From Octopus vulgaris (lineage: Eukaryota), in the NCBI GenBank assembly GCA_951406725.2, contig OX597822.1, positions 112,158,001 to 112,222,000 of the forward strand: a DNA stretch of 64,000 nucleotides, written 5' to 3'. A program made the translations under genes and the position numbers. A model generated the notes under the pieces. That model searched no databases and was not told where the DNA came from. It saw only the letters and a program-made list of their open reading frames with translations. Position 1 is the stretch's first letter. Every line of letters starts with the position of its first letter. Of this stretch, positions 4,441 to 26,900 are shown piece after piece.

Positions 4441-5002
4441 AAATTTGCAATCAATGTTTTAAAGGAAATTCATTGATTTATTCTTTCATAAGACATTTTT
4501 ATTCTTTTTTAGGCATAGGAGTGGCTGTGTGGTAAGTAGCTTGCTTACTAACCATATGGTTCCAGGTTCAGTCCCACTGCGTGGAACCTTGGGCAAGTGT
4601 CTTCTGCTATAGCCTTGGGCCGACCAAAGCCTTGTGAATGGATTTGGTAGATGGAAACTAAAAGAAGCCCGTTGTATATATGTATGTATGTGTGTGTGTC
4701 TATGTTTATCCCCCCAACATCGCTTGACAACCTATGCTGGTGTGTTTACGTCCCCGTAACTTAGCGGTTCGGCAAAAGAGACTGATAGAATAAGTACTAG
4801 GCTTACAAAGAATAAGTCCTGGGGTCGATTTGCTCGACTAAAAGCGGTGCTCCAGCATGGCCACAGTCAAATGACTGAAACAAATAAAAGAGTAAAAGAG
4901 TAAAAGAGCAACAACAGTCAATATACCAATTCTTGATGTTTAGTTCAGTAACTGTAATGTGGAAAAAAAAAAAGTATGTTTTTTTTTCTGTTTTAGGACA
5001 TC

Positions 5003-5051
5003 ATGAAGCTCATTGTTTTGGCAGTATTACTCTGCATGGTTATAAATTTTG
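5003..5051 (+). CDS. Cyt c-like gene coding exon 1: signal peptide [16 protein letters not shown]
   Basis: Polypyrimidine tract and ttttag acceptor at 4996, ATG at 5003, donor G|gtaagt at 5051/5052. MK followed by a hydrophobic core. Confidence 0.75.
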
Positions 5052-8000
5052 GTAAGTAACTATAATACAAGTATTTAATAATAATAATAATGAAATTATT
5101 GTATACAGTGCTCAGGTGCACCACAACTTGTCAAAAGTGTGTATAAAGCATATGCAGTAATGTACAAATGTCTGGGAGGTGAACAGTGTATGAGTCAGAT
5201 ACAAGCTTGCGTGTGTATGGAGGGGAGAAAGATCAGGTGTAGCATTGGCGAATCTCAGGAAGCATGGAAGTTTTGAAGGATGCAGTGCTCAGACAACTAA
5301 CAACTGATGCCGGCAGTTTGTTCCATGCTTCAGCAACTCTCAGCGTGAAAAAACTTTTTTCGAAATTAATAGGAGCTGTGCTGTTTTCTGACTTTGTAAA
5401 CATCTCCACGAGTGTTAGACAGGTGGAGTTTGAAAAGGTACTCAGAGTTATTGTTAGTAATAATAATAATAATAATAATAATAATGAAATTATTGTATAC
5501 AGTGCTCAGGTGCACCACAACTTGTCAAAAGTGTGTATAAAGCATATGCAGTAATGTACAAATGTCTGGGAAGTGAACAGTGTATGAGTCAGATACAAGC
5601 TTGCGTGTGTATGGAAGGGAGAAAGATCAGGTGTAGCATTGGCGAATCTCAGGAAGCATGGAAGTTTCGAAGGATGCAGTGCTCCGACAACTAACAACTG
5701 ATGCCGGCAGTTTGTTCCATGCTTCAGCAACTCTCAGCGTGAAAAAACTTTTTTCGAAATTAATAGGAGCTGTGCTGTTTTCTGACTTTGTAAACATCTC
5801 CACGAGTGTTAGACAGGTGGAGTTTGAAAAGGTACTCAGAGTTATTGTTAGTAATAATAATAATAATAATAATAATAATGAAATTATTGTATACAGTGCT
5901 CAGGTGCACCACAACTTGTCAAAAGTGTGTATAAAGCATATGCAGTAATGTACAAATGTCTGGGAGGTGAACAGTGTATGAGTCAGATACATGCTTGCAT
6001 GTGTATGGAGGGGAGAAAATCAGGTGTAGTGTGGGCGAATCTCAGGAAGCATGGAAGTTTTGAAGGATGCAGTGCTCCGACAACTAACAACTGATGCCGG
6101 CAGTTTGTTCCATGCTTCAGCAACTCTTAGCGTGAAAAAATGTTTCCGAAAGTCATGGAAGGAGCTGTGCTGTTTTCTGACTTTGTAAACATGTCCACGG
6201 GTGTTAGACAGGTGGAGTTTGTTTAGCAGTAGATAAAGTTTCTGTGATAGAGTTATTGAATGTTATATTCTCAGTTTTATTATAAACATTTACAAACTTG
6301 TTTTTTTTTTTCAAAGACCAATGGTTTTGCTCAAAAAATCAATTATCTTGTCTCTCTATAGTAGACAAACTTGTCTAAATTTATAAAATTTATTGGTTGA
6401 CATTATAATTTAACCCTTTAGCGTTCAAATTAATATGTCAGAAGTAATCCTTATTCATTTACATTTAAAAAAATTAACCTGGTATTATCTTGTAGCTTCA
6501 AGATTTGAAAGATGTAATTGTTTATTTTAGAATGACATTGCAGGGTAGGTGTGAGATACTGGTTCTGGCCAGTTTGAGCATAAAATGAGTAGACTATTTG
6601 GGCTGGATATAGCCGGTTTAAACACTAAAGGGTTAAGTTGAATTGTTCAAGTGACAGCATCCATATGGAAGAGCAGTTGATAACTCTTTAATTGATAACT
6701 GTTTTATGCCACCAGGGCTTTCACCAACTTGCCCTCTGAGTCCCCAAAGGTCATCCTCAAGCTTGACCTTAAAATGCTTTTAACTCCATCAGTCGAGACA
6801 TCATCCTCCACACAGTAAGGGAAAATTCCCCACCACTTTATCACTTTGCTTGGCAAGCCTATCAGGAGCCCTGCTAGACTCCATCTGCTTCTGCAGTCTA
6901 ACAGGGTGATCCATTTGGTCCTGCCCAATTCGCATTGGGTATTAATGATGTTACCTTGATGGGAGCCGACCTTGACCTAAATGTCTGGCACCTCGATGAT
7001 GCTTCTTTGGGAGACCCTCCTGACAAGGTACTTGCAACTGTGAGGACAATGATTGAGGAACTTGGTCATAGGGGTCTTAGTGTTAACAGCTCCAAATGCA
7101 AGCTCTGGTGCTTCAACCGCCCAGCTTTGCATGAGCAGACTACTAAACTATTTGTTGACTCTTTCCCCTCAATAGCAATTCCTCCTTCATCAGCATGGTG
7201 CTCCCTTAGAGCCCTAATTACTGACCTAGCTTTCAAGTCCATCTTTAAATCCAAAATGAAAAACCTTGAACAACTTTTAAAAGCCTTGAAGTAAGTGAGC
7301 CCCACCAAGATCTTTTGGTACTTAGGAATTACTTGTCAATTCCTAAGCTATTGTATTTTCTGAGAGTTGGCCCCTCTTACAGATTCCTGTTGTCCCTTCT
7401 ATACTTTGATGACCTAATCTTCAGGAAACTTGAATGCTTGGTCAATGTCAAACTCTCTCCAGACTCCCACAACCAAGCTGCTTTGCCCAAATGGTTTGGG
7501 GGTCTAGGTCTGCGCAAGTGCTCATCTTTATATCTTCCCTGTTGTCTTTCCTCCACCCACACTTGCTCCCCTTTAGAAGGCAACATCCTCACCTCTCCAG
7601 CATGGACTAATTCCAACAGGGAGATGGATTAAGCTCAATTACAGTGGAGAGAGCTGGGTTTGTCAGTTCTGGTTACAGTAGAGGATAGACAGAAACAGAG
7701 AGTATGGGACAGTCTGCATTCAAGTGCCACTTTCAGCTCTCTCCTTGTAATAGGGCAAAATTCTCAGGGGACTGGATTGACGACCTGCCAATGGCCAACA
7801 TTGGAGGTCTACTCAGTCTGTCCAGATCATCTCTGCATCTCCATCACACTCAGAGTGGGAGCTGACGTCTGTAGGGGACTCGGATGCCGCTGTGGTAGGC
7901 CCCTCAACCCAACAGGTCTTTAAGGTCTGTCTTGCCACCTAAATGCTGGTCACTTCACTTGTCACACCAAGCTAAACCCTAATCCTTAAGCCAATCCTGG

Positions 8001-11000
8001 CTCGGATTAATATCCCCTCAGTTCTGGAGCTGCCAGGGTTATCCAGAAGTGATGGAAAGAGACCAGATGGTCTTATCCTCTGTCCCTGGGTTAGAGGTAG
8101 CCAGCAACAAACATCTGACCTCATTCCACAGGACTCACTATCACAACAGCCTGTTTCTGCTACTACATCACCAGTACCTGACCCGATTCCACCTGCTAGC
8201 CCTGCTGTTGCAAGTCAAGTTTCACTGCTGCTACAGCAACAACAACACTCTGCTATAGAAAAATCACCCATACACCCATATCAAACACCCTGCCGTTACT
8301 ATGCTCAAGGTAACTGTAAATTTGGCCCCAGCGGCAACAACAATGAGGGACGCTGTGCTTTTTTCCATCCTACTTTATGTCGTAGACTTGTTAAGGGCAC
8401 CTGTCCATATTGTATAACAGGAAAAAACTGCCCTCACCTCCACCCCAAATACTGTCCTAAATACAGAGTCCATGGTCCTGATCCCAAATATGGATGCACA
8501 AAAGGCAATAGATGCACCTTCTTTCATCCTAAACTGTGCCAAACTTCTGTGTCACTAAGGATGTGCCTGAACCCAGAATGCAACCACCACCATCTGAAGG
8601 GCACAAAACGATCACAAAATAGATATAAACAGCAACAGAGGAGATCTTCAACAACAATAAAAACAAAATACAACCACGTTTCCCCTCCTACAATCAAACA
8701 ACGAAGACAGAACCATGAAAAAACCATAACACCAAATAACATAAACATGAAATATGTATCCTCCGACCAAGTGGCAAACCAAAGTGGTAACTCTATTTTA
8801 CTGACTTACCTAGAAAATATGAAGGCCGACCTAAGCCAGGAGATCCAACGAGCTATCAGCAACCACCTATGCAAATCACAAGGACCACACACCCACTACT
8901 AACAAGAAAATCATACACACACAGCTCCATACAAGAACTACCCACATTGTTACCACTGAACAACTTAGAACAATGCAAACATCAAACTTCACTTACCTCG
9001 ACATTCCTATTAAATGTACGTGGCATCAACCCATCAATTATTGCCCAAAAATGGAAGATCCCATATATAGAGAGTTGGCTTGCCGAAACGACACATTGCT
9101 TCCCTTTCTTTATCCTTACCGAGACTCACCTGAACAACACCCATATAGACGCCGAGGTGAAAATAAAAGATTTCACCATTGTTCGTGCGGATCGCACAAA
9201 CCGAAATAAGGGAGGGACAGCCATCTTTATCCATGACTCCTTCTCACTTGATGCCAAGGACATATTTTCCAATGGCTACTGTGAATCGGTATCACTATAC
9301 AACAAAGCCAAGGGCATAACCATTGTTGGTCTTTACAGGCCTCCCCAAGCACCTTTAAAGTGCTTTGAAGAGTGCCTTAGCAAAGTCAAGTCCTTCCTTT
9401 GGAAGTACCACTCCGGAAACATACTAGTGATGGGTGATTTTAACCTCCCTCATGTGAACTGGCCCACAAATACTCTGAAGTTAGGCAAGTGCTCTACATC
9501 AGATAGAGCAGCAGCAGAACTGCGCTTTAATCTAATGGATGAATACTTCCTGACTCAGCTAGTGCTCGAACCAACGAGACAGAATAAAACGATCTTGGAT
9601 CTGGTATTGACCAACCACTCTAGCTTCGTTCACAGTATTTCAGTTGAAAAAATTCTCCTCTCAGACCACAACATGGTACTCTGCAATTTCAATTCCCAAC
9701 ATATAAAAACCAAGCCAGCCAATCCCACTCCATGGCACTCATTTGATAGCATAAATTTCCACAAAGCGGACTGCGGAGCAATCAGAAAGGATCTGTCTTT
9801 CATCGACTGGTCTTTTACTCTCAATTCCACCTATGTTGAGACCGCATGGCAGCACTTTCAAAACATTGTCACATATACATGCTCTAAACACGCTCCCACG
9901 AAATCTAACACAAACAGAAATTGGCTCCCTAAAAAGAAAAAAACACTCATCAGGCGCATCAAAAGACTTAACAAAAAAATCAAACAATTAAAATATTCCC
10001 ACAAACAACATCCACATTCAACAACAATGAAAAGGCTAGAGCTGGAAAAACTTCATCTGCAGAACGACATGAAAACCTCCATTGAAAATCAAAGAGCTGC
10101 GGAGGAACAGTGGGTAATCAAAAACATCAAACAGAACCCAAAAGTGTTGTATTCCTATGCAAATAAGCATAGAATCACTGTCTCACCCATTGGGCCATTG
10201 ATTGATGCTAACGGCATTCCCCAACACGATGCTAAAGAAATGGCAGAAATACTGCAGAAACGATACTGCTCTGTCTTTAGTGTTCCCACTGATATTGACG
10301 TAAGAGAAGCGAACGAAATTGATTCCCAACATAAAGTCTCGGACATAACCTTTCACTGCCTCTGACATCATAGCAGCAATATATGAGATTAAATACTATT
10401 CTGCTGTAGGCCTTGATAGATTCCCCGCTAGTCTCCTGAAGGAATGTAGACACCAACTTGCAGTCCCTCTGACCAACCTCTGGAGAAATTCGTTAGACGC
10501 AGGTTATATACCGAAACAGTTTCTATCCCAGTCAGTCATCCCGGTTTTCAAACAGGGAAACAGATCCCTCGCACTCAACTATAGCCCAATCTCACTCACC
10601 TCCAACATCATCAAAGTGTTTGAAAGAGTGTTAAGATCAAGGATGGCTGACTTCCTGGAGACCCAGAAACTCCTAAATGCAAATCAGCATGGCTTTCACT
10701 GTGGCAGGGACTGTCTAACACAGCTCTTACACAACATTGAAGATGTACTCAAAGCCTTGGGAACAGGTTCGAACTCTGATGTCATATATCTTGACTTCAG
10801 TAAAGCGTTCGACAGGGTAGACCATAATATCCTACTCTCAAAATTGTCAAATGTTGGAATCCGTGGAAAAGTTCTACACTGGATCAAGTATTTCCTGGCG
10901 AATAGAACACAACATGTTGTAGTTGATGGAGTTCACTCAAGCCCAGCAAAAGTCACCAGCGGTGTCCCCCAGGGGACTGTCTTGGGTCCGCTACTCTTCA

Positions 11001-14000
11001 TAATCTACATAAACGACCTTTCCAGTGTAGAACATTACTGCAAAGTGAAAATATTTGCTGATGACACCAAGCTCCAGCAAATCGTCAATGAAGAAGCAGA
11101 CCGAACTCAACTCCAGTCTGATCTATATGCTGTGAGTCAATGGGCAGACAAACAAAATGCAACTGAACGAGGGAAAATTTGAGCTGATGCATTTTGGAAG
11201 AAATTCCTCACTAAAACAGCCATACTCTCTTCCTTCAGGGGAACCGCTCACAGCCTCTAACAACATCAGAGACCTGGGTGTAATTGTTGATGACGATCTC
11301 AGTTGGAGTGCACACATCAACAAGAAGGTCGATATAGCTCGTAGGATGAGTTCCTGGATCTTAAGAACTTTCCAGTCCAGAGAACAAGGTGTCATCATAC
11401 CACTCTTCTCCTCCTTTGTATGGCCACAGCTCGAATACTGCTGCCCACTGTGGTCTCCCCATACAAGACAAAACATCTCGAGGATTGAATCATCCCAGAG
11501 AGCACTCACTAAACGAATGGAAGGCATGGCTGCTCTCGATTATTGGGATCGCCTTAAAGCCTTGAAACTCTACTCTCTCCAGCATCGCCGTGAGCAGTAC
11601 ATCATTTGTACGATGTGGAGAATATACCGCCAACTTTGCCCAAACGACCTGAACATAAGCTTCAAGGTTCATCCAAGACTGGGACCACGGGCCATACGTC
11701 TCCTGCCCAATTCAAGATCACAGCATACATATACACTACAACATAATTTCTTTTCCTCAACAGGCCCTGCCCTATTTAACATTGTCCCGAAAGAGATCAA
11801 AGAGGAACTGGATCCCATCAACTTTAAACGGAGTCTGGATAGATTCCTTCAAAGAATACAAGACAAGCCACCCATAATTGGATACAATTCACCCAACAAA
11901 AACTCACTACTTGAATGGACCATAAGCAAAACTTGACTTAAACAGGATTCAAATAATCCTATCAGGTGGTGCTATTAAGTTAGACATGGCCTAGAACAAT
12001 CATTGGTCGAAACACATCTAAGTTTATAATGTTAGTGCAGTATAAGAAGAAAAGAATTCTATTATTCTGGGCAAGGTCATTTTTGAATTAAATCTTATGG
12101 TTCTGATGGATGAATTCTGGGTACATATGTTAAGGAGTTGTGTGTAAGAATGGAGATGTTGAATCATCTGGAATACTGCAGGCCAACTTAGTTTTGAGCT
12201 TTGATAAGTTTTAATTTCTAATACATTTAAATAAAAGTTTCATGTATCATATCCATTTTTTAATGAAAAATAAATTTAGAGTAAAATTCAACAAAACCAC
12301 CTTTTAGTTTTGTAGTGACACCATTTTGGAAGTCTTCAGCACACATGCATAGAGTTGGATTTCTTCCGGGTGGCTTGCCGGAAGTTCCCTCATGCACATG
12401 TGCAGAGAACTAGCAGCAGCAAAATTTCCCTCTCTCGAAGCTGACAGTCAAATGGAAAGGACGTGTTTTAGCTGCTCTCCCGAGCTGCCACCATGTGGCG
12501 ATGCTACACTATGCTGGAACGAGACAGGATTTGGTTCACTCCATTTGACCACTGCGACTAGTTCCTAGGCTACAGATTCAACCTGAAAGAAATGCATGCC
12601 AGCGCCGCCTTGACTGGCTTCCATGTTGGTGGCACGTAAAAAGCACCCACTACACACATGGAGTGGTTGGCATTAGGAAGGGCATCCAGCCGTAGAAACA
12701 TTGCCAGATCAGACTGGATCCTGGTGCAGCCTCCTGGCTTCCCAGACCCCTGTCAAATCGTCCAACCCATACTAGTATGGAAAACGGGCGTTAAACGATG
12801 ATGATGATGACGATGATGATGATACTGCGAATCCAGAAATAAAAATATTTTATTCTGTTTGAAGATATTCGGAAGTCTTGGCTTTTCCTTCGATAAATAA
12901 TTTGATGTAAGGGGATGAAAGCTGCCCCCCCCCCCCCAGTGTTACAGACCTTTCATCTTGTTACAGTTTTAATTTGTTGTATTCTCATTGATTGAGCAGA
13001 TTTATGATCAAAGATGACTCAACTGTAATCATCAATGGTATATTCAACCACAATGTATCTTGACCATGTCATCCAGTGTTTCCTTCCTTTTTAAAAAATA
13101 GTAGAATGTGATTTGGGAGGCATTTGGTTGTTATTTGCAGCAGGTTGAGTAATGACATAGTTACCACGTCAATGGTTCGAGTTTTTGACTCGTGACACTC
13201 AGTATCTTATATGTATTTAACAAACAATTAATGTAACAATATCTTTCATGTTATTACATGTTCCAAAATATATGCATTTACATTATTTCAACAACAAAAT
13301 GGAAAATATGTTTTAACATTAGAATACCGAGACTTTCTAATTATTATTTTGGTAACAAAAGTTAATTTGCTTTGCACCCTTAATATAACATCCTTCAATG
13401 AATTGTCTCCGCTTCAATGTAAGATGGCTTTTTGTCTATTCAAAACAAAATGTTTTGCAAGAATTTCATCACCTTTAAACTCTACTAATCAATGATGCTA
13501 TCATGATGTAATAAAGGAAAACATTCCTGTCTTTGATATGATAATAATTCAAATTTTCTCATCTTATTGCTACTTCAGATACCTGTTTGGGAACTGCAGA
13601 TGGAAACACCATTTTTAAGAGAGCAATACGATCGTAAGAAATAAAATTTTTAAGCTCTGAAGATTACAATTTTATATTTGAACAATTGTATAATATACTA
13701 GCAGTATCGCCTGGCATTGCTCGGGTTTGTTTCGACCCTTTAGAATTGGAATTTTTGAAAAGTAAAAATTTTGCATTATGTAGCTTGTTATTCTCTTTAA
13801 GTGAACATTTTTCTGGTTGAAATACACTGAAAAATGGTGACACAGCAGTCAAAAAATCGCAAAATATAGGGGTTTTCATAGAAAAAAAGCACCTTTTTGA
13901 TGTAAATAATTTTTGGTGTTAACATGGTCTGATTTGAATTTTTTCTTGTACAGAAGGAAGAGCAAGCCTTCTTCTGTCATACTCTCAATTTTGGTCAACT

Positions 14001-17000
14001 TGCACTGCAGGGTCTCGGGGGAGATAGTGTTAGTTGAAGGCTACCAAAGTGCCATACACAGACAACTTCAGCTTTATATATAGAGAGATTTGAAGATGAC
14101 AATAACTTTAATACGCTTTTAAAAAAAGGGAGATAATTTTCCAGATTTTTAACTTAATTTTTAGAAATGGACTTTTTTAAAAAAAGTACATTCAGCTATT
14201 CCTGACTTAAACGTTTCTCCTCTCATTAAGGCTTCCCATGTTTTTCTATTCTGACATTTAGGAATGTCCTAGTCTTTCCTACAGAAGACCTTCTACAAAT
14301 GCTTGTGTAGGTTTAATTTTAGAAAGGATTCTTTAAAATGTGTTACTTTTGAATAACCTGACTGCCTTTCTATCTGTCTGTCTTGCTATCTATAGATGCT
14401 GTGTTTCTCTCTGTCTCCGTCTCTAGCCCACACCTACAAAAAAAAAAAACTAATTTCAGAATATTTGAATATAAAATATGAGATATAAAGTAAGTCATTT
14501 TTTATGTAGTAGAAAATTAAGATAAACCATCTTGCTTCACATTTATAAGAAGGGCTGCTGGAATAAATCACAAGTTATATGGAAATTCTGTTGAGAAATT
14601 ACTCAATATTATCTTTATATATAAAAGTGAGGTTGTGTGCTGTCTGTCTCCTACGATTTAGATTCCTAACTCCTCCCACATTTTGCGGTGCAGTGTAACC
14701 AACAGCGGGTATCTTATAGTTGTGATTCATATCGAGCCCTTCTGGGTATTAGCGCGCGTCTACGATGAGTCTACGATTTTGAAAATAATTTACCATCAAT
14801 TTTTCCTGTTTTTAATACATTTTTTAGCTATTATATAAGAGAAGTAACTCTCTAAAAATGTATTATTAAATCTCAGAACGTAAAAAGCTACAGTAACACT
14901 CCCCCTTTGTGGTTAGCCATATTGAGATGGCTATTATACTTTACATCTCTAAAAATGCTTATATAGTTATTTCCCTTACAAACCCGAGCAACGCCGGGCG
15001 ATACTGCTAGTATTCAATACAATTTTAATACAATTTCAGTTTGTTTTTATTTTGCAAATAGTTTTTAAAGAGACTCTTTATTTTAAGTTTAATGTATGTC
15101 CTCACTTTTGTTATCCATTATCTACATTTTAGGAGAAATTTGAGAATCAATCTTAGAGCTGGCGAGAGAATATATAAACGTTTAGGCCCATATCTACTGA
15201 TTATATGTAGTGAGAAGGATGAAGATGTTGGCTTGATGAATATCATAGATGAGGCACACATGGGTAATTATTCTTTAATTTGGACATTTTAGTCAGAAGT
15301 TTGTATTTGTTTAGAACATTCTACTATTTTTCTATATCAATAATTTTTGACATCTCTATATATAAAACAAAGGACGTGTCTGTGTGCATATGTGTGTGTG
15401 TGTAATACGTATGCATTTCTACAGTTTTCAACCAATTTTTACCAAACTTTATACACATATTACTTATATGCCAAGGATAGTCATGGACTATATTTTGCCC
15501 TGAGCTCCCATGTAATGCGAGAAACTGACCTGGTTTTTCACATGGGTTTTTCTGTAAAAACTGCAGTTTTCAACCGATTCTCTCCCTTTGACTTCTGCAA
15601 TGATCAAATGATTCTTTCTCTGTTTCTCTTCTCTTTCTCACTTACATCCTCTGCAATTCTTCTCTCTCTGTCATGTGTAAATATCTTTGCTGTCATGCTA
15701 TTTGCGCGTTCTCCCTACAACATTACTTATTAAAAATTTTTTGCACTCTGTCTATTTAAATACACTATTTACATTTCTCTCTCTATTGAAAACTGTTGTG
15801 ATACAGCAGACAAGCCTTCATTACTAACCAATGGGAATTCAACCATGCCACTGAGTATTCATGCATTAGAAAAAGATATCCTAAAGTGGCTCAAGTTTGT
15901 TCACTCAGCCCATTTTCTTCTACAGTTAATTTGCTGAAATTGGGTTTGTAATTTCTGTCTACAAATTAACTTCTTCGTGTGAAATAATATTGTTGCACTT
16001 TATTCTTTCACTTTTAATTCTAATGTAATAAGACTATTGTTTCACTTTATGTGTGTGTCCTTGCGTGTTCGATACGTATGAAATAGTAAAGGACGTTTTA
16101 TATCACGACAACAATGTCACATATATGAGTGTGCATGTGTCTCTGAATTTACGTGTGTGGGTGTATGAGTGTGTAAGTCTCTCTGACTGTGTGCGTGTTT
16201 CCGCATTAAGTACATTATTAAACACAAACACACACACATCTATACATAGATATACACATGTGACAACTGACATGCGTGAATGTATGTCTGTATGTGTCTC
16301 TCTTACTATAGCATATGAATGTGTGCCTGTGAGTGTGTGTGTGTGTGTTTGTGTGCCTGTTATGTATGTTACTAAACGCACACATACATCACCACATGCA
16401 CAGCTGGAGGTGAAACTCTTGACAAAAAACAATTACGTGGAAGGCCCAAGTTATATACATCTCTAATGTTCATTCAACATTTCATAATTATTGCAGCAGT
16501 CGCAAAGTATTTACAATTTGCTTCTATTTTGTTAATTTACACTGCATGCAAACATATCGACATACAACATACAACTGCTAACAAAAATAGAGATCAATGT
16601 ATATTATTATTATTACAATGACAGGACACGTGTTATCTTGTTTCTGAATTATAAGTTGGTTATTAAAGCCGGTTATTGACGAGAATTTGTCTGGCAGATA
16701 ATATTGTTTTGCTAAATTACCTATTAAAGGATGGCAAATAATCTTATTTGCTAAAGAAATTTGAAACCATGGTATAACCGCTAATAAAAATAACAAGGTA
16801 AAAGTTTTTATTTTTCATTTACTTCGAAAATTGCTATTAAATCGGTGTTTTGGCCGTGTTGGCTGCTATTTCTAGCATGTAAAAATTACCTGCTAAAGGG
16901 TAGTTTTCTTTTGTGTTTAAATGTACACTATTTTAAAATATGAATATGTCATCTATTGACTATTTATACATGCTGGGCTACAGGTGGTGATATTTATAAC

Positions 17001-20910: not shown

Positions 20911-23900
20911 ATACAAGGATGGGACAATAAGTGTAAACCAGTGTCAACAGTGGCGCAGGAGTGGCTGTGTGGTAAGTAGCTTGCTTACCAACCACATGGT
21001 TCCGGGTTCAGTCCCACTGCGTGGCACCTTGGGCAAGTGTCTTCTGCTATAGCCCCGGGCCGACCAATGCCTTGTGAGTAGATTTGGTAGATGGAAACTG
21101 AAAAAAGCCTGTCGTATATATGTATATATATGTATATATATGTGTGTGTGTGTGTGTGTTTGTCCCCCTAGCATTGCTTGACAACCGATGCTGGTGTGTT
21201 TACGTCCCTGTCACTTAGCGGTTCGGCAAAAGAGACCGATAGAATACGTACTGGGCTTACAAAGAATAAGTCCCGGGGTCGATTTGCTTGACTAAAGGCG
21301 GTGCTCCAGCATGGCCGCAGTCAAATGACTGAAACAAATAAAAGAGTAAAAGAGAAAGAGAGAGTGGTTTCAGAAATTCTGAGCCAGAAACTACAGCTTA
21401 GGAAACGAGCCATATCCTGGAAGATCTGTAGAGCTCGGTGAGGATGTCCTGCAACCCATGGTGGAACAAAATCCTGTCGTATCTATTGAGGAACTAGCAA
21501 AGAAACTTGGATTTAGCCATTCAACCTTTCATTGATACCTGCATGCTATTGGAAAAATCATCAAATTGGCTCAATGGGTTCCAAGTCTAATCGTGGGCAG
21601 AGAGCAAATGTGTGCTCTTCTTTGCTGTCAAGTCTCATCAATGAACTTATTTTGCCCCACCCACCATATTCACTGGACATTGCTCCATCTGATTAACATT
21701 TATTCTGCAGTCTTCAAAATTATTTGGACAGAAAAAGTATGAATTCCGTAGATGAGGTCAGAACAGTACTTGAAGAGTATTTTTCATCACAGACAAGTGA
21801 ATTTTGGAAGAGGGGCCTTGCAAGTCTACCAGATAGATGGAAGAGCATTGTAGAAAAGGAAGGAGAGTATATTTTAGATTATAAAAAGAACTTTGTTTAT
21901 CTTAATTTTGAAAAATAAAATGAATATAAAAAACCCACATTATTTATGGGATGACCCAATATATGAGCACATATAATCTTTACATTTATATATAAATTCA
22001 TTTTTAGGTCATGTTTACAAAAAGGATGAACTTAGGAAGTTTTTGAATCGCCCAAAGTCTGTTTTACCCTCTACAAAGATAAAAGTTGCTGGTATGGAGA
22101 AAGATAATGTTAATATGCTAATAGCTTATATGACCCATGCATGTAATGAGAATTAGTACAAAATGTTTGGTTTAAATTAACTTTTGAGGACTTTAAGGAT
22201 GGTAAGTATCATATGATTTCATATTTGAGTAATTCTGAGGATCGGAAGAAAAAATAATTTTTCCATGGTATATTATAAGGTGGTATCAAAACATAAGGCA
22301 GCGAGCTGGCAGAAATGCTAGCACGCCAGGCGAAATGCTGAGCAGTATTTCGTCTGCCGTTACGTTCTGAGTTCAAATTCCGCCGAGGTCGACTTTGCCT
22401 TTCATCCTTTCGGGGTCGATAAATTAAGGACCAGTTACGCACTGGGGTCGATGTAATCGACTTAATCCGTTTGTCTGTCCTTGTTTGTCCTCTCTGTGTT
22501 TAGCCCCTTGTGGGCAGTTAAGAAAACGGTATCAAAACGTTCCTATCAAAACTAGTTATGTTTAATCAAACAAATGAGCTATTTATGTAAGTTTTAACAT
22601 CATTTCCTTTTAAATAGACATCTTGTGCTGCAGTACACCAGTCCCAGTATTCTTGCCACTTTTGGAATGGGGTCTGGAAGTCGTTTTCCACAAGTGGGTT
22701 GAGGACCTTCTGCAATTCACTTGGATCTTGACAACAGCGACCTTTGAGCTGCATTGTCATTTTTGAGAAGAGACGGAAGTCCACAGGTGCTAAATCTGGT
22801 GAATAGGGTGAGTGTGGAAGTGAAACCCTGTTGTTTTGGGTGAAAACTCATGAGTGAGGAGAACTCAGTGATAGGGTCAATTGTTGACATGAAGAATCCA
22901 ATTATTTGCATCCCACAGATCCAGTCGCTTTTGCCGAATGTTCTCCCTCAGATGCTTGGAACCATTGCAGTAGAACTCAGGATCGATGGTCTGGCCTTGG
23001 ACGAATTCTTGATGCACAATACCACATTTCTGGGGTGACGCTTGTTGCATGTCTTCCAGATCGCTCATCATCTTCCCAGGATGTTCTTCTACTTTTGAAT
23101 TTACTTGTACTTGTGGTGACATTCACCCTGGGCGGGTTGAATCGGCTTCTTTTTTGGAAGAAGTTTCGTGGGAATATGTGGATTTCACAAGCGGTCCCCA
23201 ACAATCCCGCATGTAGAGACATCCTGTTTGCTGCAGATTGTCCACAGATGCAGGGACAGAACGACCGAGGAGCCACCGGTTGCCAAAACAGACACTCTAA
23301 GGATTTCACCAGAGCCCCGTCTGCCGGGTTGTGGCCCTAATACTACTCGGTGTCAGACCAATCCACCTTGGGTGGCCCTACCAGGAACTGAAGTTCCCAA
23401 CGACATAGCTCTGACACTACCCATTGCCAGCGTCCCCACCACGGTGAGGAGGGGATGGATTTTGGGGAGGCAAAGTGTCTTTTGAAGTACCCATGCCACT
23501 CTAAACATTGTGTACAACCCATTGCCTTGTTGCCATAAGCTTGCTGAAGCATGCTCAATGTCTCCGTAGCACACTTCCCAAGTTTAACACAAACTTTCAC
23601 ATTGGCGCTTAGTTCCAGTCTTTGGCAAAATTGCAAACTACAGCCTACACATGATCCCAAAAAGGCAAATTTCACAGCTTGCGGAGTAAACACAGCAATG
23701 TCACATGACACACTGCCTCATGAAGGTCACTACTAGCTCTCACTGCACATGCAACTGTGTGCTGCCATCTGTTGGTGAACAACAAAACTTGTCTGGAAAC
23801 ATTATTTACATTTGACGGATATTTGTCCTCATCTTGTTTGTTAATACGTTTCGGCTGATATACCCTCCAGCCTTCATCATGTGTCTTGCAGAAATTTCAA

Positions 23901-26900
23901 ACCTGGGTTCTCATTCCTATGGTATTTCTCGATTGGATTGCAAGACAGCGTGTGAGAGAAAATTGTGATGTCACAGGATGTGTCATGCAAGAGAGACGTT
24001 TGCACTGGTATGGTCATGTACTACAGATGGATGAGGAGAGCTGTGTGAAGAAGTGCTATTCCCAAACAGTTGAAGGAATCTGGGATAGAGGTAGACCCAG
24101 GAAGACATGGGATGAGGTAATGAAGCATAACCTTTAAACATTGGGCCTCACAGAGGCAATGACGAAAGACCAAGACCTTGGGAGATATGCTGTGACTGTG
24201 AAGACCCGGCAAATAAAGTGAGTTCATGACTGCATCCTACACCAGTTTTGCATATCCAGTCCCAGCTCATTCAAAGTACCTTGGATCGTAGGGCAACCTG
24301 CTGTGCTTGAGGAGACCTATTGAGTCAAGTACATCAACATCAACTTCAAAATGAAAATCAAATGGAAATTGCAGTTGTGACACCTGTACCGGTGGCATGT
24401 AAAATGCACCAACCGATCGTGACCATTGCCAGCCTTCTCTGGCCCCTGTGCCGCTGGCACATAAAAAGTGGTTGGCATTAGGGAGGGCATCCAGCTGTAG
24501 AAACCACTGCCAGATCAGACTAGAGCCTGGTGCAGTCTCCTGACTTCCCAGAACCCAGTCGAACCATCCAACCCATGCTAGCATGGAAAACGGACATTTT
24601 TACTGCCTGGAATTGAACTCAGAACCTTGGGGTTAGTAGCCCGCACTTTTAACCACCATGCCATATGCCCATGGGCAATTATGGAGTGAATTTTAGGGTT
24701 TATAAATCTAATATTTTCCTATCCTTCCTGAATACCAGTTCCCATATGCTACTCATATCTGCACTCAGTCTGCTTAGAAGTTGTTGTCTCCTAGCATATG
24801 TATTTTCGTATTTTCCAGTGGTGTTCTCTAGTATTTAAACTTCATCCCACAGGGGGAGCTGGTCTCCATTTTTCCATACATGATCAGCTATATTGATATC
24901 TCCTCGTGTCACAGCTTTGCGATATTCCTCTACCCTTATTTTGAGGGGTCGGCATGTTTCGCCTTTGTATAACCTACCACAGTTGCATGGGATGGAGTAC
25001 ACGCAGTCTTTTGCCATATTCTCTTCTATTGGTGGTTTTACTCGAAGGAGATATTTGCGAAGTGTTGTATTACTCTTGAATACTGTCCTGATGTCATATG
25101 GGCCACATATCTTTTGTATCTTTTCAGAGAGGCCTTTCACATAGGTTAGACAGACTGTGGACAGTTTATTGGTTTCATCCTCTCTTTTCTTCATAATTGG
25201 ATTGGAGAGTATGTTTTTGGGGTAGTTGTTGCTCAATAAGTTGTTAATGAGCCTGATCATTTCTTCATGGTGTATACAACTATCACTACTTATATTTTTT
25301 GCTCAATGTTTCAGGCACTGAGCAATCCTTCTCTTTACACTGTATGGATGGTGGGAATTGAAGTTAAAGTATCGTCCAGTGAAGGTCGGCTTGCAGTATA
25401 CTGATGTCCTGAATCCATACTTGGTGTGAGTTATTAATATGTCCAGGAATGCCAGCTGATTGTCTTTTGCCTTTTCCGTTGTGAACTCTATGAATGGCTT
25501 TATTGAGTATACATGATCTAACAGCACTTGGACATCTTCCTAGTGGGGCCAGAGTATAAAGGTGTTATCAACATATCCCAGCCATAGGGTTGGTTTTAGT
25601 GGTGTTGATCCTAAAGCCAAATTCTCAAAGTATTCCATTTAATATATTGGCTATTATCGATGATAATGCCAAACCCATAGCTAAACACTCTTCTTGTTGA
25701 TATATATCAGTGTCCATACTGAAGTAGGTAGTTTCTACAGAGAAGGTCAATATTTCTATCAAGTTTCTTATTGGTATACTAGTGTGTTCTTTTAGATGGG
25801 TGTCTGTCACTAGTTTTCCTTGTATCACAGATAGTGCTTCACCAGTTGGGACTTTGGTGAACAGACTTATCACATCTAGACTCACCATCTGGTTCGATTC
25901 AATGGGGATATCCTTGATCAATTCTGTGAAGTGGGTGGAATTCTTCACGTACGATGTTGACTTTCCTGCTAATGGACTGATTATATCCACAAGGAAGCGG
26001 CTCAGTTGATGACGTGCTGAACCTCTACAGCTCACTATAGGTCTTAATGGAATACCATCCTTGTGAATCTTAGGGAGACTGTACATGTGTGGTAGTTTAC
26101 TGAAGTGTTGAATCAGTTGTCAGTACTTCATTGGTGTAAAGTGATCCTTGTTCTTGATCAAGATCTGTGACTTCCTCTCTGTTTTTGAGAGTTGGGTCTT
26201 TCTATTATTTGCTGTAGCTACCATCACTTATGATACTTGCCAATTTTTCAGAGTAGTCAGACTTGTCCATCACCACTGTAGCATTTCCCTTGTCCGCTGG
26301 AAGTATTATGATGGAATTTTCACTCTGTAGTCTTTTGATAGCGAACTTTTCTTCCTTAGTGATGCTTTGTTCGGAAAGTTTCACTTTTTCTAGTACCTGT
26401 CTCATCTAGTTCATCTCCCCGAGCTTTTGGCATCTTTATGGCTATCTCTTCAATAAGGGCTATTATATACATATACATAAATATATATATATACACACAC
26501 TCACACATACTTATATACATACATATATATATACACACATATACACACATATATACACATATATATATACACATATATATATACACACACATATATACAT
26601 ATATATATATACACACATATATATATATATATATACACACACATATATACATACATATATATATATACACACATATATATACATATATATATTCAACAAA
26701 GTCATGTCTTGTCCTTACCTTCGGAACACAGAGTAGGCAAAACAGGGACATGTCTTGTACTCTGTTTTGTCATTGTTTTAAAAAAGTTCGTTTCCATGTT
26801 TTCGTTTCTCATTGTGTTCAACGTTTTTTTGATGTCCGGTACCTATATATCCTTGTAATATAGATGTAAGTATGTACATATATGTATGTATATATGCATA

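What the first reader, a model, noticed from the sequence alone, without database searches (positions are those of the whole stretch)
15133..15263. Precise loss of the heme-binding machinery: CXXCH segment deleted, Met80 and Trp59 replaced
Seen: within one exon, the N-helix-like [12 protein letters not shown] (cf. DVEKGKKIFVQK) runs directly into GPYL (cf. GPNL, 29-32). About 15 residues (C14-T28, containing CXXCH and the axial His18) are therefore absent. From GPYL to the exon-junction Gly there are 27 residues versus 28 in cyt c, so the rest is colinear. The Met80 position is Leu in exon 4b (PGTRLVF) and Ile in exon 4a (PSTKIKV), and Trp59 is Leu or Tyr. Established: these residues are essentially invariant in class I cyt c, and apo-cytochrome c is largely unfolded. 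Inference: concerted loss of all ligands with open frames fits a neofunctionalised heme-free protein better than random decay. The vacated pocket might bind another hydrophobic ligand.
Basis: partly seen in the sequence, partly recalled or inferred. Interest (0 to 1): 0.88.

Follow-up and report, generated by a model that had tools for sequence, protein, structure and literature searches.

The report
Octopus heme-free, secreted cytochrome c
Octopuses and argonauts carry, next to their normal cytochrome c gene, a spliced and conserved copy that has lost the heme-attachment motif and gained a likely signal peptide, so a mitochondrial electron carrier has likely been turned into a secreted, heme-free protein whose job is untested.

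Summary
The locus is real and more interesting than first described, but the 'precise deletion' is not the best-supported reading. The exon belongs to a four-coding-exon Octopus vulgaris gene about 57 kb downstream of the intact cytochrome c gene. A public contig joins exon 3 directly to exon 4b. Orthologues occur in O. sinensis, O. bimaculoides and Argonauta hians. CXXCH and Trp59 are gone in 7 of 7 family proteins; Met80 in 6 of 7. Not mentioned in the finding: a signal-peptide-like N-terminus, and two invariant cysteines at cytochrome c positions 36 and 102, a likely disulfide. HHalign, MAFFT, HMMER and DNA similarity place the N-helix in exon 2, not exon 3. CXXCH then sits at the exon 2/3 junction and was replaced in place (about 50%), rather than deleted inside exon 3 (about 50% with or without a partial exon duplication). 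AlphaFold resolved only the C-terminal half. Likely logic: once routed to the ER the protein never meets the mitochondrial heme lyase, so heme contacts decayed and a disulfide took over. Function is untested. No description was found in seven literature searches.

The parts
4997..5051 (+). First coding exon (ATG at 5003): basic start and hydrophobic core of a signal-peptide-like leader; preceded by an acceptor, so an untranslated exon likely lies upstream
   Evidence: exon ends that reproduce P0001; hydropathy peak 3.56 at residues 4-14
13579..13633 (+). Exon 2: end of the leader (invariant Ala23), then N-helix-like motif A ending in invariant Ile-Phe-Lys-Arg-Ala; ends in phase 2 at cytochrome c codon 16 if A is the N-helix
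15133..15263 (+). Exon 3 (the finding): motif B (20s loop or second N-helix copy), cytochrome c 29-55 equivalent, invariant Cys60 (position 36); no CXXCH; phase-1 donor in the Gly56 codon as in the parent gene
22008..22156 (+). Exon 4a, alternative C-terminal half (position 80 Ile, 59 Tyr, Cys102); coding part to the stop codon
   Evidence: matching isoform X2 records in O. sinensis and O. bimaculoides; splicing not seen directly here
29864..30015 (+). Exon 4b, C-terminal half (position 80 Leu, 59 Leu, Cys102); coding part to the stop codon, with 3' UTR covered by contigs to about 30300

Best explanation
This is a spliced, conserved, CXXCH-less copy of the neighbouring cytochrome c gene that is likely secreted through a newly gained signal peptide, likely held together by a Cys36-Cys102 disulfide in place of heme, and likely acts as a non-redox extracellular binding protein through its basic surface. 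Shown: gene structure, adjacency to the intact parent, the exon 3-4b splice, orthologues in three Octopus species and Argonauta, loss of CXXCH, Trp59, Tyr67 and mostly Met80. Inferred: tandem duplication, then gain of a leader that sends the chain to the ER, where there is no heme lyase; heme contacts were then free to change while core residues (Leu32, Gly45, Leu68, Pro71, Pro76, Thr78, Tyr97) stayed. CXXCH was most likely overwritten in place at a new intron after codon 16, with the N-helix in exon 2. Two alternative last exons would give two versions of the C-terminal face. The most likely activity is binding to acidic membranes or surfaces in a secretion; this last step is the weakest (about 0.3).
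For: Parent gene intact, same strand, about 57 kb upstream, with the same phase-1 intron in the Gly56 codon. One locus only in the genome for exons 2, 3 and 4. Contig 18 of run X2 covers exon 3 and exon 4b back to back; in 4 of 4 runs laid, a contig starts matching exactly at the 4b acceptor and carries 328-407 further letters upstream. Seven full-length family proteins from four species; the profile search drops from E 1e-38 to 5e-10 between the family and ordinary cytochromes c. HHalign of the family against 37 ordinary cytochromes c: probability 99.0, 100 columns, residues 23-127 against 5-104, nearly colinear. MAFFT and HMMER (O. bimaculoides proteins) give the same register. Phe10-to-Gly23 spacing is 13 in cytochrome c, 13 in Argonauta, 12 in O. 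bimaculoides, 16 here. Exon 2 DNA aligns unforced to the first 53 bases of the parent exon (p 0.012; with the acceptor flank it is the only one of 438 acceptor-like sites reaching its score), and the parent has a GT at codon 16 phase 2, where exon 2 ends. Hydrophobic core at residues 3-15 with small residues at 21 and 23. The only two cysteines beyond the leader are invariant in 7 of 7, in both exon-4 versions. Net basic: Lys+Arg 17 against Asp+Glu 11 here. The ESM Atlas model (pTM 0.55) matches cytochrome c clusters at TM 0.53-0.61 over 86-109 residues, more than exon 4 supplies. Heme lyase works in the mitochondrial intermembrane space and needs the His of CXXCH (PMC4158909). A cytochrome c fold without heme or CXXCH exists in qNOR (PMC5826923, PMC10256718).
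Against: Both AlphaFold models are poor over exons 1-3 (pLDDT under 50; pTM 0.37 and 0.38), and fold searches align only the last 45-55 residues to cytochrome c (Z 5.4, rmsd 3.2 over 54 residues). No signal-peptide predictor was available; the leader is judged by hand, and Argonauta's hydrophobic stretch is long enough to be an uncleaved anchor. One annotated form (P0003) starts at Met12 and lacks most of it. Gly6 of motif A is Glu in Argonauta, and motif B keeps Gly-x-x-[Ile/Leu]-Tyr in all family proteins and is modelled as helix. The disulfide geometry was not measured. No peptide or accession of this protein was found in the stored, truncated supplements of an O. vulgaris posterior salivary gland proteome or ink proteome. 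There is no tissue, localisation or activity evidence. The DNA test was designed after I saw the similarity by eye.
Confidence: 0.6

Rival explanations
1. CXXCH was deleted inside exon 3. Exon 3 is a whole copy of the parent's first coding exon with about 15 codons removed, and motif B is the N-helix. Exon 2 is either a second, truncated copy of the same exon (about 0.3) or an unrelated propeptide ending in a Lys-Arg cleavage site (about 0.2). The end product is the same kind of heme-free protein, with a shorter mature chain.
For: Motif B scores as well as A in Octopus and better in Argonauta (14.6 against 6.9). Two such matches in one chain are unlikely by chance (p 0.0002 here). Gly45 and Tyr49 are invariant. 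Under the colinear reading the two inserted residues happen to be Ile/Leu-Tyr, the Ile9-Phe10 equivalents. Exon 3 begins with one base before the first full codon, as the parent exon does. With cheap gap extension the O. vulgaris sequence aligns this way. AlphaFold draws B as a helix. The locus has duplicated exon 4 in tandem. Residues 1-32 are 31 of 32 identical between O. vulgaris and O. bimaculoides against 26 of 35 and 35 of 50 downstream, as in prepro leaders.
Against: HHalign, MAFFT and HMMER choose the colinear register, as does the profile alignment for O. bimaculoides at all three gap settings; these methods do penalise long gaps. The six residues before and around B's Gly score the same as the 20-25 loop and as helix 3-8, so B's helix likeness is partly built into cytochrome c. 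The A-to-B spacing equals the Gly6-Gly23 spacing in two of three lineages. Exon 3 shows no DNA similarity to the parent.
Confidence: 0.45
2. Only the C-terminal half keeps the cytochrome c architecture. The N-terminal half has refolded or is flexible, so the product is a new small disulfide-linked helical protein rather than a heme-free cytochrome c fold.
For: AlphaFold gives pLDDT under 50 for exons 2-3 and aligns only residues 61-115 of the model to cytochrome c. Pfam's cytochrome c model does not match any family protein. Apocytochrome c is generally unfolded (PMC3884852). The family stem is long, 2.2 changes per column.
Against: Shallow alignments (6 and 34 rows) explain low confidence. 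The Atlas model matches cytochrome c over 86-109 residues. Leu32, Gly45 and Tyr97 are invariant.
Confidence: 0.25
3. The leader is an uncleaved membrane anchor and the protein is a membrane-tethered domain in the secretory pathway or on the cell surface.
For: Argonauta's hydrophobic stretch runs about 19 residues.
Against: In Octopus the hydrophobic core is about 13 residues, followed by polar residues and small residues at -3/-1 of an invariant Ala23.
Confidence: 0.15
4. It still binds heme or another porphyrin or metal, but non-covalently and with new ligands, as an extracellular scavenger or peroxidase-like protein.
For: Met70 (position 47) is invariant and a His occurs at position 53 or 54 in every family protein; Met80 survives in one isoform.
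Against: The His is not in one column. Trp59, Tyr67 and (in 5 of 7) Tyr48, which line the heme site and are 94-95 of 95 conserved in ordinary cytochromes c, are replaced; Gly34 (91 of 95) becomes a large aliphatic residue.
Confidence: 0.12
5. It is a transcribed, decaying pseudogene.
For: Very fast divergence from cytochrome c and loss of nearly all functional residues; no protein-level detection found.
Against: Open frames, conserved exon order, both exon-4 versions and 37 invariant columns across six proteins from Octopus and Argonauta; 47% identity between the genera.
Confidence: 0.04

Closest known systems
Mitochondrial cytochrome c (class I, PF00034), including the octopus's own adjacent gene
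   Same: Homologous over about 100 columns; about 45-55% identity over the C-terminal half to solved cytochromes c and other eukaryotic ones for exon 4b; same Gly56 intron; core residues kept.
   Different: No CXXCH or His18; Trp59 and Tyr67 lost in 7 of 7, Met80 in 6 of 7; N-terminal leader (mitochondrial cytochrome c has no cleaved signal, PMC4158909); extra introns; two alternative last exons; invariant Cys pair.
N-terminal soluble domain of quinol-dependent nitric oxide reductase (qNOR/NorZ)
   Same: A cytochrome c-derived domain that keeps the fold after losing heme c and CXXCH (PMC5826923, PMC10256718; passages).
   Different: Bacterial, derived from NorC, fused to a membrane enzyme; an independent loss. 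No sequence or structure link to this protein was found or tested beyond the general fold searches.
Bacterial cytochrome c2 with a Sec signal peptide
   Same: Signal peptide followed by a class I cytochrome c domain; such proteins are the nearest ESM Atlas clusters and align end to end.
   Different: They keep CXXCH and are matured in the periplasm. The octopod gene shares intron position and locus with the host gene, and exon 4 is closer to eukaryotic than to the bacterial-type set (0.49 against 0.39 mean identity), so transfer from bacteria is not needed.
Cephalopod enzyme-derived crystallins (S-crystallin from glutathione S-transferase, omega-crystallin from aldehyde dehydrogenase); recalled, no call
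   Same: Housekeeping protein duplicated and reused after losing its chemistry, in the same animal group.
   Different: Those are intracellular lens proteins of other folds; no relocation through a signal peptide.

Membership tests
Class I c-type cytochrome (mitochondrial cytochrome c) | CXXCH heme-attachment motif with axial His18 | tested here: not met
   Absent in 7 of 7 full-length family proteins and in all frames between exons 2 and 3
Class I c-type cytochrome (mitochondrial cytochrome c) | Axial Met80 | tested here: not met
   Leu in 4b and Ile in 4a in this window; Met kept in 1 of 7 family proteins
Class I c-type cytochrome (mitochondrial cytochrome c) | Heme-site residues Tyr48, Trp59, Tyr67 | tested here: not met
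   Trp59 0 of 7, Tyr67 0 of 7, Tyr48 2 of 7, against 95, 94 and 95 of 95 ordinary sequences
Class I c-type cytochrome (mitochondrial cytochrome c) | PF00034 match above the curated cut-off | tested here: not met
   No PF00034 match for any of the proteins and exons scanned
Class I c-type cytochrome (mitochondrial cytochrome c) | Common descent (homology over the whole domain) | tested here: met
   HHalign probability 99.0 over 100 columns; exon 3 tail significant by itself; shared intron and locus
Class I c-type cytochrome (mitochondrial cytochrome c) | Three-helix fold with N- and C-terminal helices crossing | tested here: inconclusive
   AlphaFold confident only for the C-terminal half; Atlas model TM 0.53-0.61 at pTM 0.55
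Class I c-type cytochrome (mitochondrial cytochrome c) | Covalent heme and electron transfer in the intermembrane space | not testable with these tools
   Needs biochemistry; the sequence predicts neither
Heme-less cytochrome c-fold domains (qNOR type, by analogy) | Fold kept without heme c or CXXCH | tested here: inconclusive
   Motif loss shown; fold only partly modelled
Secreted disulfide-bonded preproproteins | Cleavable N-terminal signal peptide | tested here: inconclusive
   Basic start, hydrophobic core, small residues at 21 and 23, conserved in four species; no dedicated predictor or N-terminal data
Secreted disulfide-bonded preproproteins | Even, invariant cysteine set in the mature chain | tested here: met
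   Exactly two cysteines beyond residue 23, invariant in 7 of 7; the bond itself is not shown
Secreted disulfide-bonded preproproteins | Protein found in a secretion | tested here: inconclusive
   Not found in truncated salivary-gland and ink proteome supplements; skin-mucus supplement unreadable

The most novel reading that the evidence does not exclude
Octopods have turned mitochondrial cytochrome c into a secreted protein family: a duplicate gained a signal peptide, replaced its covalent heme with a disulfide, keeps the cytochrome c fold without any cofactor, and presents two alternative C-terminal halves by splicing. It would be an animal, stand-alone, naturally folded apo-cytochrome c with an extracellular job.
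Probability: 0.5. Interest if true: 0.87.

Novelty: new variant of a known kind. Interest (0 to 1): 0.72.

Why it matters
Mitochondrial cytochrome c is a standard example of an unchanging protein whose folding depends on its heme. A lineage-wide animal paralogue that drops the heme and is likely exported would show that this scaffold can be re-routed and reused, and would give a natural test of how a cytochrome c chain can fold without heme: the new disulfide and pocket-filling residues can be moved into or out of ordinary cytochrome c. It also adds a small, unannotated, octopod-restricted secreted-protein candidate that databases label 'cytochrome c', which is misleading about function.

Tried and rejected
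Pairwise protein and DNA alignment of exon 3 to the parent exon: not significant for O. vulgaris. AlphaFold with six family rows and with 28 added C-terminal cytochrome c fragments chosen to avoid biasing the N-helix, many of them with intron read-through at their start: neither resolved the N-terminal half; Foldseek gave no match at E 0.001 or better. One search compared the family with an alignment that contained it and is discarded as circular; one search replaces it. The exon-4 tree (34 rows, 49 columns) groups the six family rows (98/99) but cannot place them; my 'bacterial' labels came from database names for 2 of 9 rows and from appearance for the rest. A GPYL-like stretch near 25100 is not a second exon 3. 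The second PF00034 hit in the genome (C9:54295158) has a stop and no gene-like context. No second copy of exon 2 was found as a donor of the leader. Sequencing runs: no RNA holder listed on record; the runs laid are guessed to be RNA, and four same-species runs held none of the words; depth was not used. The exon 2-3 and exon 3-4a junctions were not seen in reads. Pfam gave nothing. ESM feature scores of 0.85-0.87 are leads only. Literature searches for this protein found no description: (listings only). Supplements searched without a hit: PMC10142993 and PMC7693380 (both cut when stored), PMC9712504 and PMC9699675 (one file each not searched); PMC11431876's supplement was unreadable and its two main-text mentions concern cytochrome c oxidase. 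A search for published Cys102-position 36 geometry gave nothing usable. Earlier scan notes: none. No complex prediction was run, as no partner is claimed.

Full report
What is there. It is the third coding exon of a gene with coding exons at 4997-5051, 13579-13633, 15133-15263 and either 22008-22156 (4a) or 29864-30015 (4b). These ends reproduce letter for letter a 128-residue database protein named 'cytochrome c-like [Octopus vulgaris]'. The intact cytochrome c gene, with CXXCH, Trp59 and Met80, lies on the same strand about 57 kb before the first coding exon and has its intron in the same phase of the same Gly56 codon. Genome searches with exons 2, 3, 4b and the Argonauta protein found no further copy.

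Is it expressed and kept? Of four runs laid (guessed to be RNA), one contig covers exon 3 and exon 4b back to back, and in all four a contig begins to match exactly at the 4b acceptor with 328-407 further letters upstream (the table of pieces was cut, so other junctions were not seen). No C-x-x-C-H exists in any frame between exons 2 and 3. Relatives were found in O. sinensis (4a and 4b forms), O. bimaculoides (4a, 4b and a truncated form) and Argonauta hians (two forms that also differ in exon 3). Beyond these, scores fall to ordinary cytochromes c (E 5e-10 and weaker). No squid, cuttlefish or other animal orthologue appeared in three word-based searches and one full HMMER search; that does not prove absence. 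Six aligned proteins share 37 invariant columns. In O. bimaculoides the ordinary cytochrome c record (XP_014772787) is five accession numbers from this gene's, which hints at the same adjacency.

What was lost. CXXCH, Trp59 and Tyr67 are missing in 7 of 7 full-length proteins, Tyr48 in 5 of 7 and Met80 in 6 of 7; O. bimaculoides X1 keeps Met80. In 95 ordinary cytochromes c Trp59, Tyr48 and Tyr67 are present in 95, 95 and 94 (that set was selected by CXXCH, GPxL and the Met80 motif, so it says nothing on those). Kept in all: Leu32, Gly45, Leu68, Pro71, Pro76, Thr78, Tyr97. That heme contacts went and core residues stayed is the pattern expected from selection on a heme-free product (inference; the roles of these positions are recalled).

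What was gained. Residues 1-23 look like a signal peptide: Met-Lys, a hydrophobic core (peak 3.56 at 4-14), small residues at 21 and 23 with Ala23 invariant. No predictor was available. Beyond the leader every protein has exactly two cysteines, at cytochrome c positions 36 and 102, in both exon-4 versions, which suggests a disulfide; their closeness in the fold is recalled from yeast cytochrome c and was not measured. Heme lyase acts in the mitochondrial intermembrane space, needs the His of CXXCH, and its substrate has no cleaved signal (PMC4158909, passages). A chain sent into the ER would not meet it, which would explain why the heme residues became free to change together. Apocytochrome c is generally unfolded, with exceptions (PMC3884852, passages), so a replacement stabiliser is expected.

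How CXXCH was lost. The last 26 residues of exon 3 match positions 29-55 (p 0.0016 here; 0.0002-0.051 over five sequences), so exon 3 is derived from cytochrome c. There is an equally good match in exon 2 (motif A; 13.9 against 13.6). HHalign against 37 ordinary cytochromes c (probability 99.0, 100 columns), MAFFT, and HMMER on the O. bimaculoides proteins all put A on the N-helix and B on the 20s loop, with the CXXCH columns filled by other residues across the exon 2/3 junction; HMMER did not extend that far for the other five proteins. The Phe10-Gly23 spacing of 13 is matched by Argonauta (13) and nearly by O. bimaculoides (12); O. vulgaris has 16. Exon 2 DNA aligns to the first 53 bases of the parent exon (p 0.012; 51 of 6396 genomic 55-mers score as high; with the acceptor flank 1 of 438 acceptor-like sites, itself), exon 3 DNA does not, and one of the nine GT dinucleotides tabulated in the parent exon falls at codon 16 phase 2, where exon 2 ends (test set up after inspection). 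Against this, B keeps Gly-x-x-[Ile/Leu]-Tyr everywhere while A loses its Gly in Argonauta; A ends in an invariant Lys-Arg that could be a processing site; exon 3 starts in the same phase as the parent exon; and aligners penalise long gaps. Cytochrome c's own segments 3-8 and 20-25 resemble each other, which is why the question is hard. My odds: substitution in place with a new intron 0.5; partial exon duplication, with A and B both from the N-helix and a deletion in exon 3, 0.3; deletion with an unrelated exon 2, 0.2. If a deletion occurred, its ends can slide from 11-25 to 14-28.

Structure. Two AlphaFold models (mean pLDDT 47 and 57) were confident only for exon 4; fold searches ranked cytochrome c first but over 45-55 residues (Z 5.4, rmsd 3.2). 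The ESM Atlas model (pTM 0.55) matches cytochrome c clusters at TM 0.53-0.61 over 86-109 residues.

Function. I commit to a secreted, non-redox binding protein. The chain after residue 31 is basic (Lys+Arg 16-23 against Asp+Glu 9-12 in five proteins), the leader is more conserved than the body within Octopus (31 of 32 against 26 of 35 and 35 of 50), and two C-terminal halves are maintained. Binding to acidic membranes, a recalled property of cytochrome c, is the most economical reuse, at about 0.3. No tissue is known. The protein was not found in the stored, truncated supplements of a salivary-gland or an ink proteome, so a venom or ink role has no support here; supplements that I could not read in full may bear on this.

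Comparison and novelty. It fails the defining tests for a c-type cytochrome but is descended from one. A heme-less cytochrome c fold is known in bacterial qNOR (PMC5826923 and PMC10256718, passages), so the principle is not new. A stand-alone animal paralogue with a leader was not found in seven searches of the held library (listings only; subscription journals are mostly missing) or in earlier scan notes. Verdict: new variant of a known kind, interest 0.72.

Noticed in passing
G000:C9:112103211-112105540 (L001, L004), about 55 kb before the window: The ordinary octopus cytochrome c has Cys at position 34, where 91 of 95 comparison sequences have Gly, and two cysteines at 101-102. The C-terminal Cys of the paralogue may be inherited from it.
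   Followed up: partly
window 22154-22207: A strong donor (GTAAGT at 22202) follows exon 4a's stop codon by 45 bases. Exon 4a may be a cassette spliced on to a later exon, with the stop close enough to the junction to escape nonsense-mediated decay (rule recalled).
   Followed up: no
window 7976-11933: A LINE-type retrotransposon in intron 1, same strand: zinc-finger ORF, then endonuclease and reverse transcriptase in separate frames.
   Followed up: partly
window 30648-30710: Matches the last exon of the truncated O. bimaculoides isoform X3 but has stop codons here, so that isoform is probably not conserved.
   Followed up: partly
   Followed up: no
L001 donor and window 22008, 29864: The parent's CXXCH-bearing exon ends in the same phase as exons 4a and 4b begin, so a read-through chimera would be in frame; no evidence for one was seen.
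   Followed up: no
L013 (about 5-16 kb before the window): A tandem-repeat-like stretch between the parent gene and the paralogue gave repeated weak translated matches.
   Followed up: no
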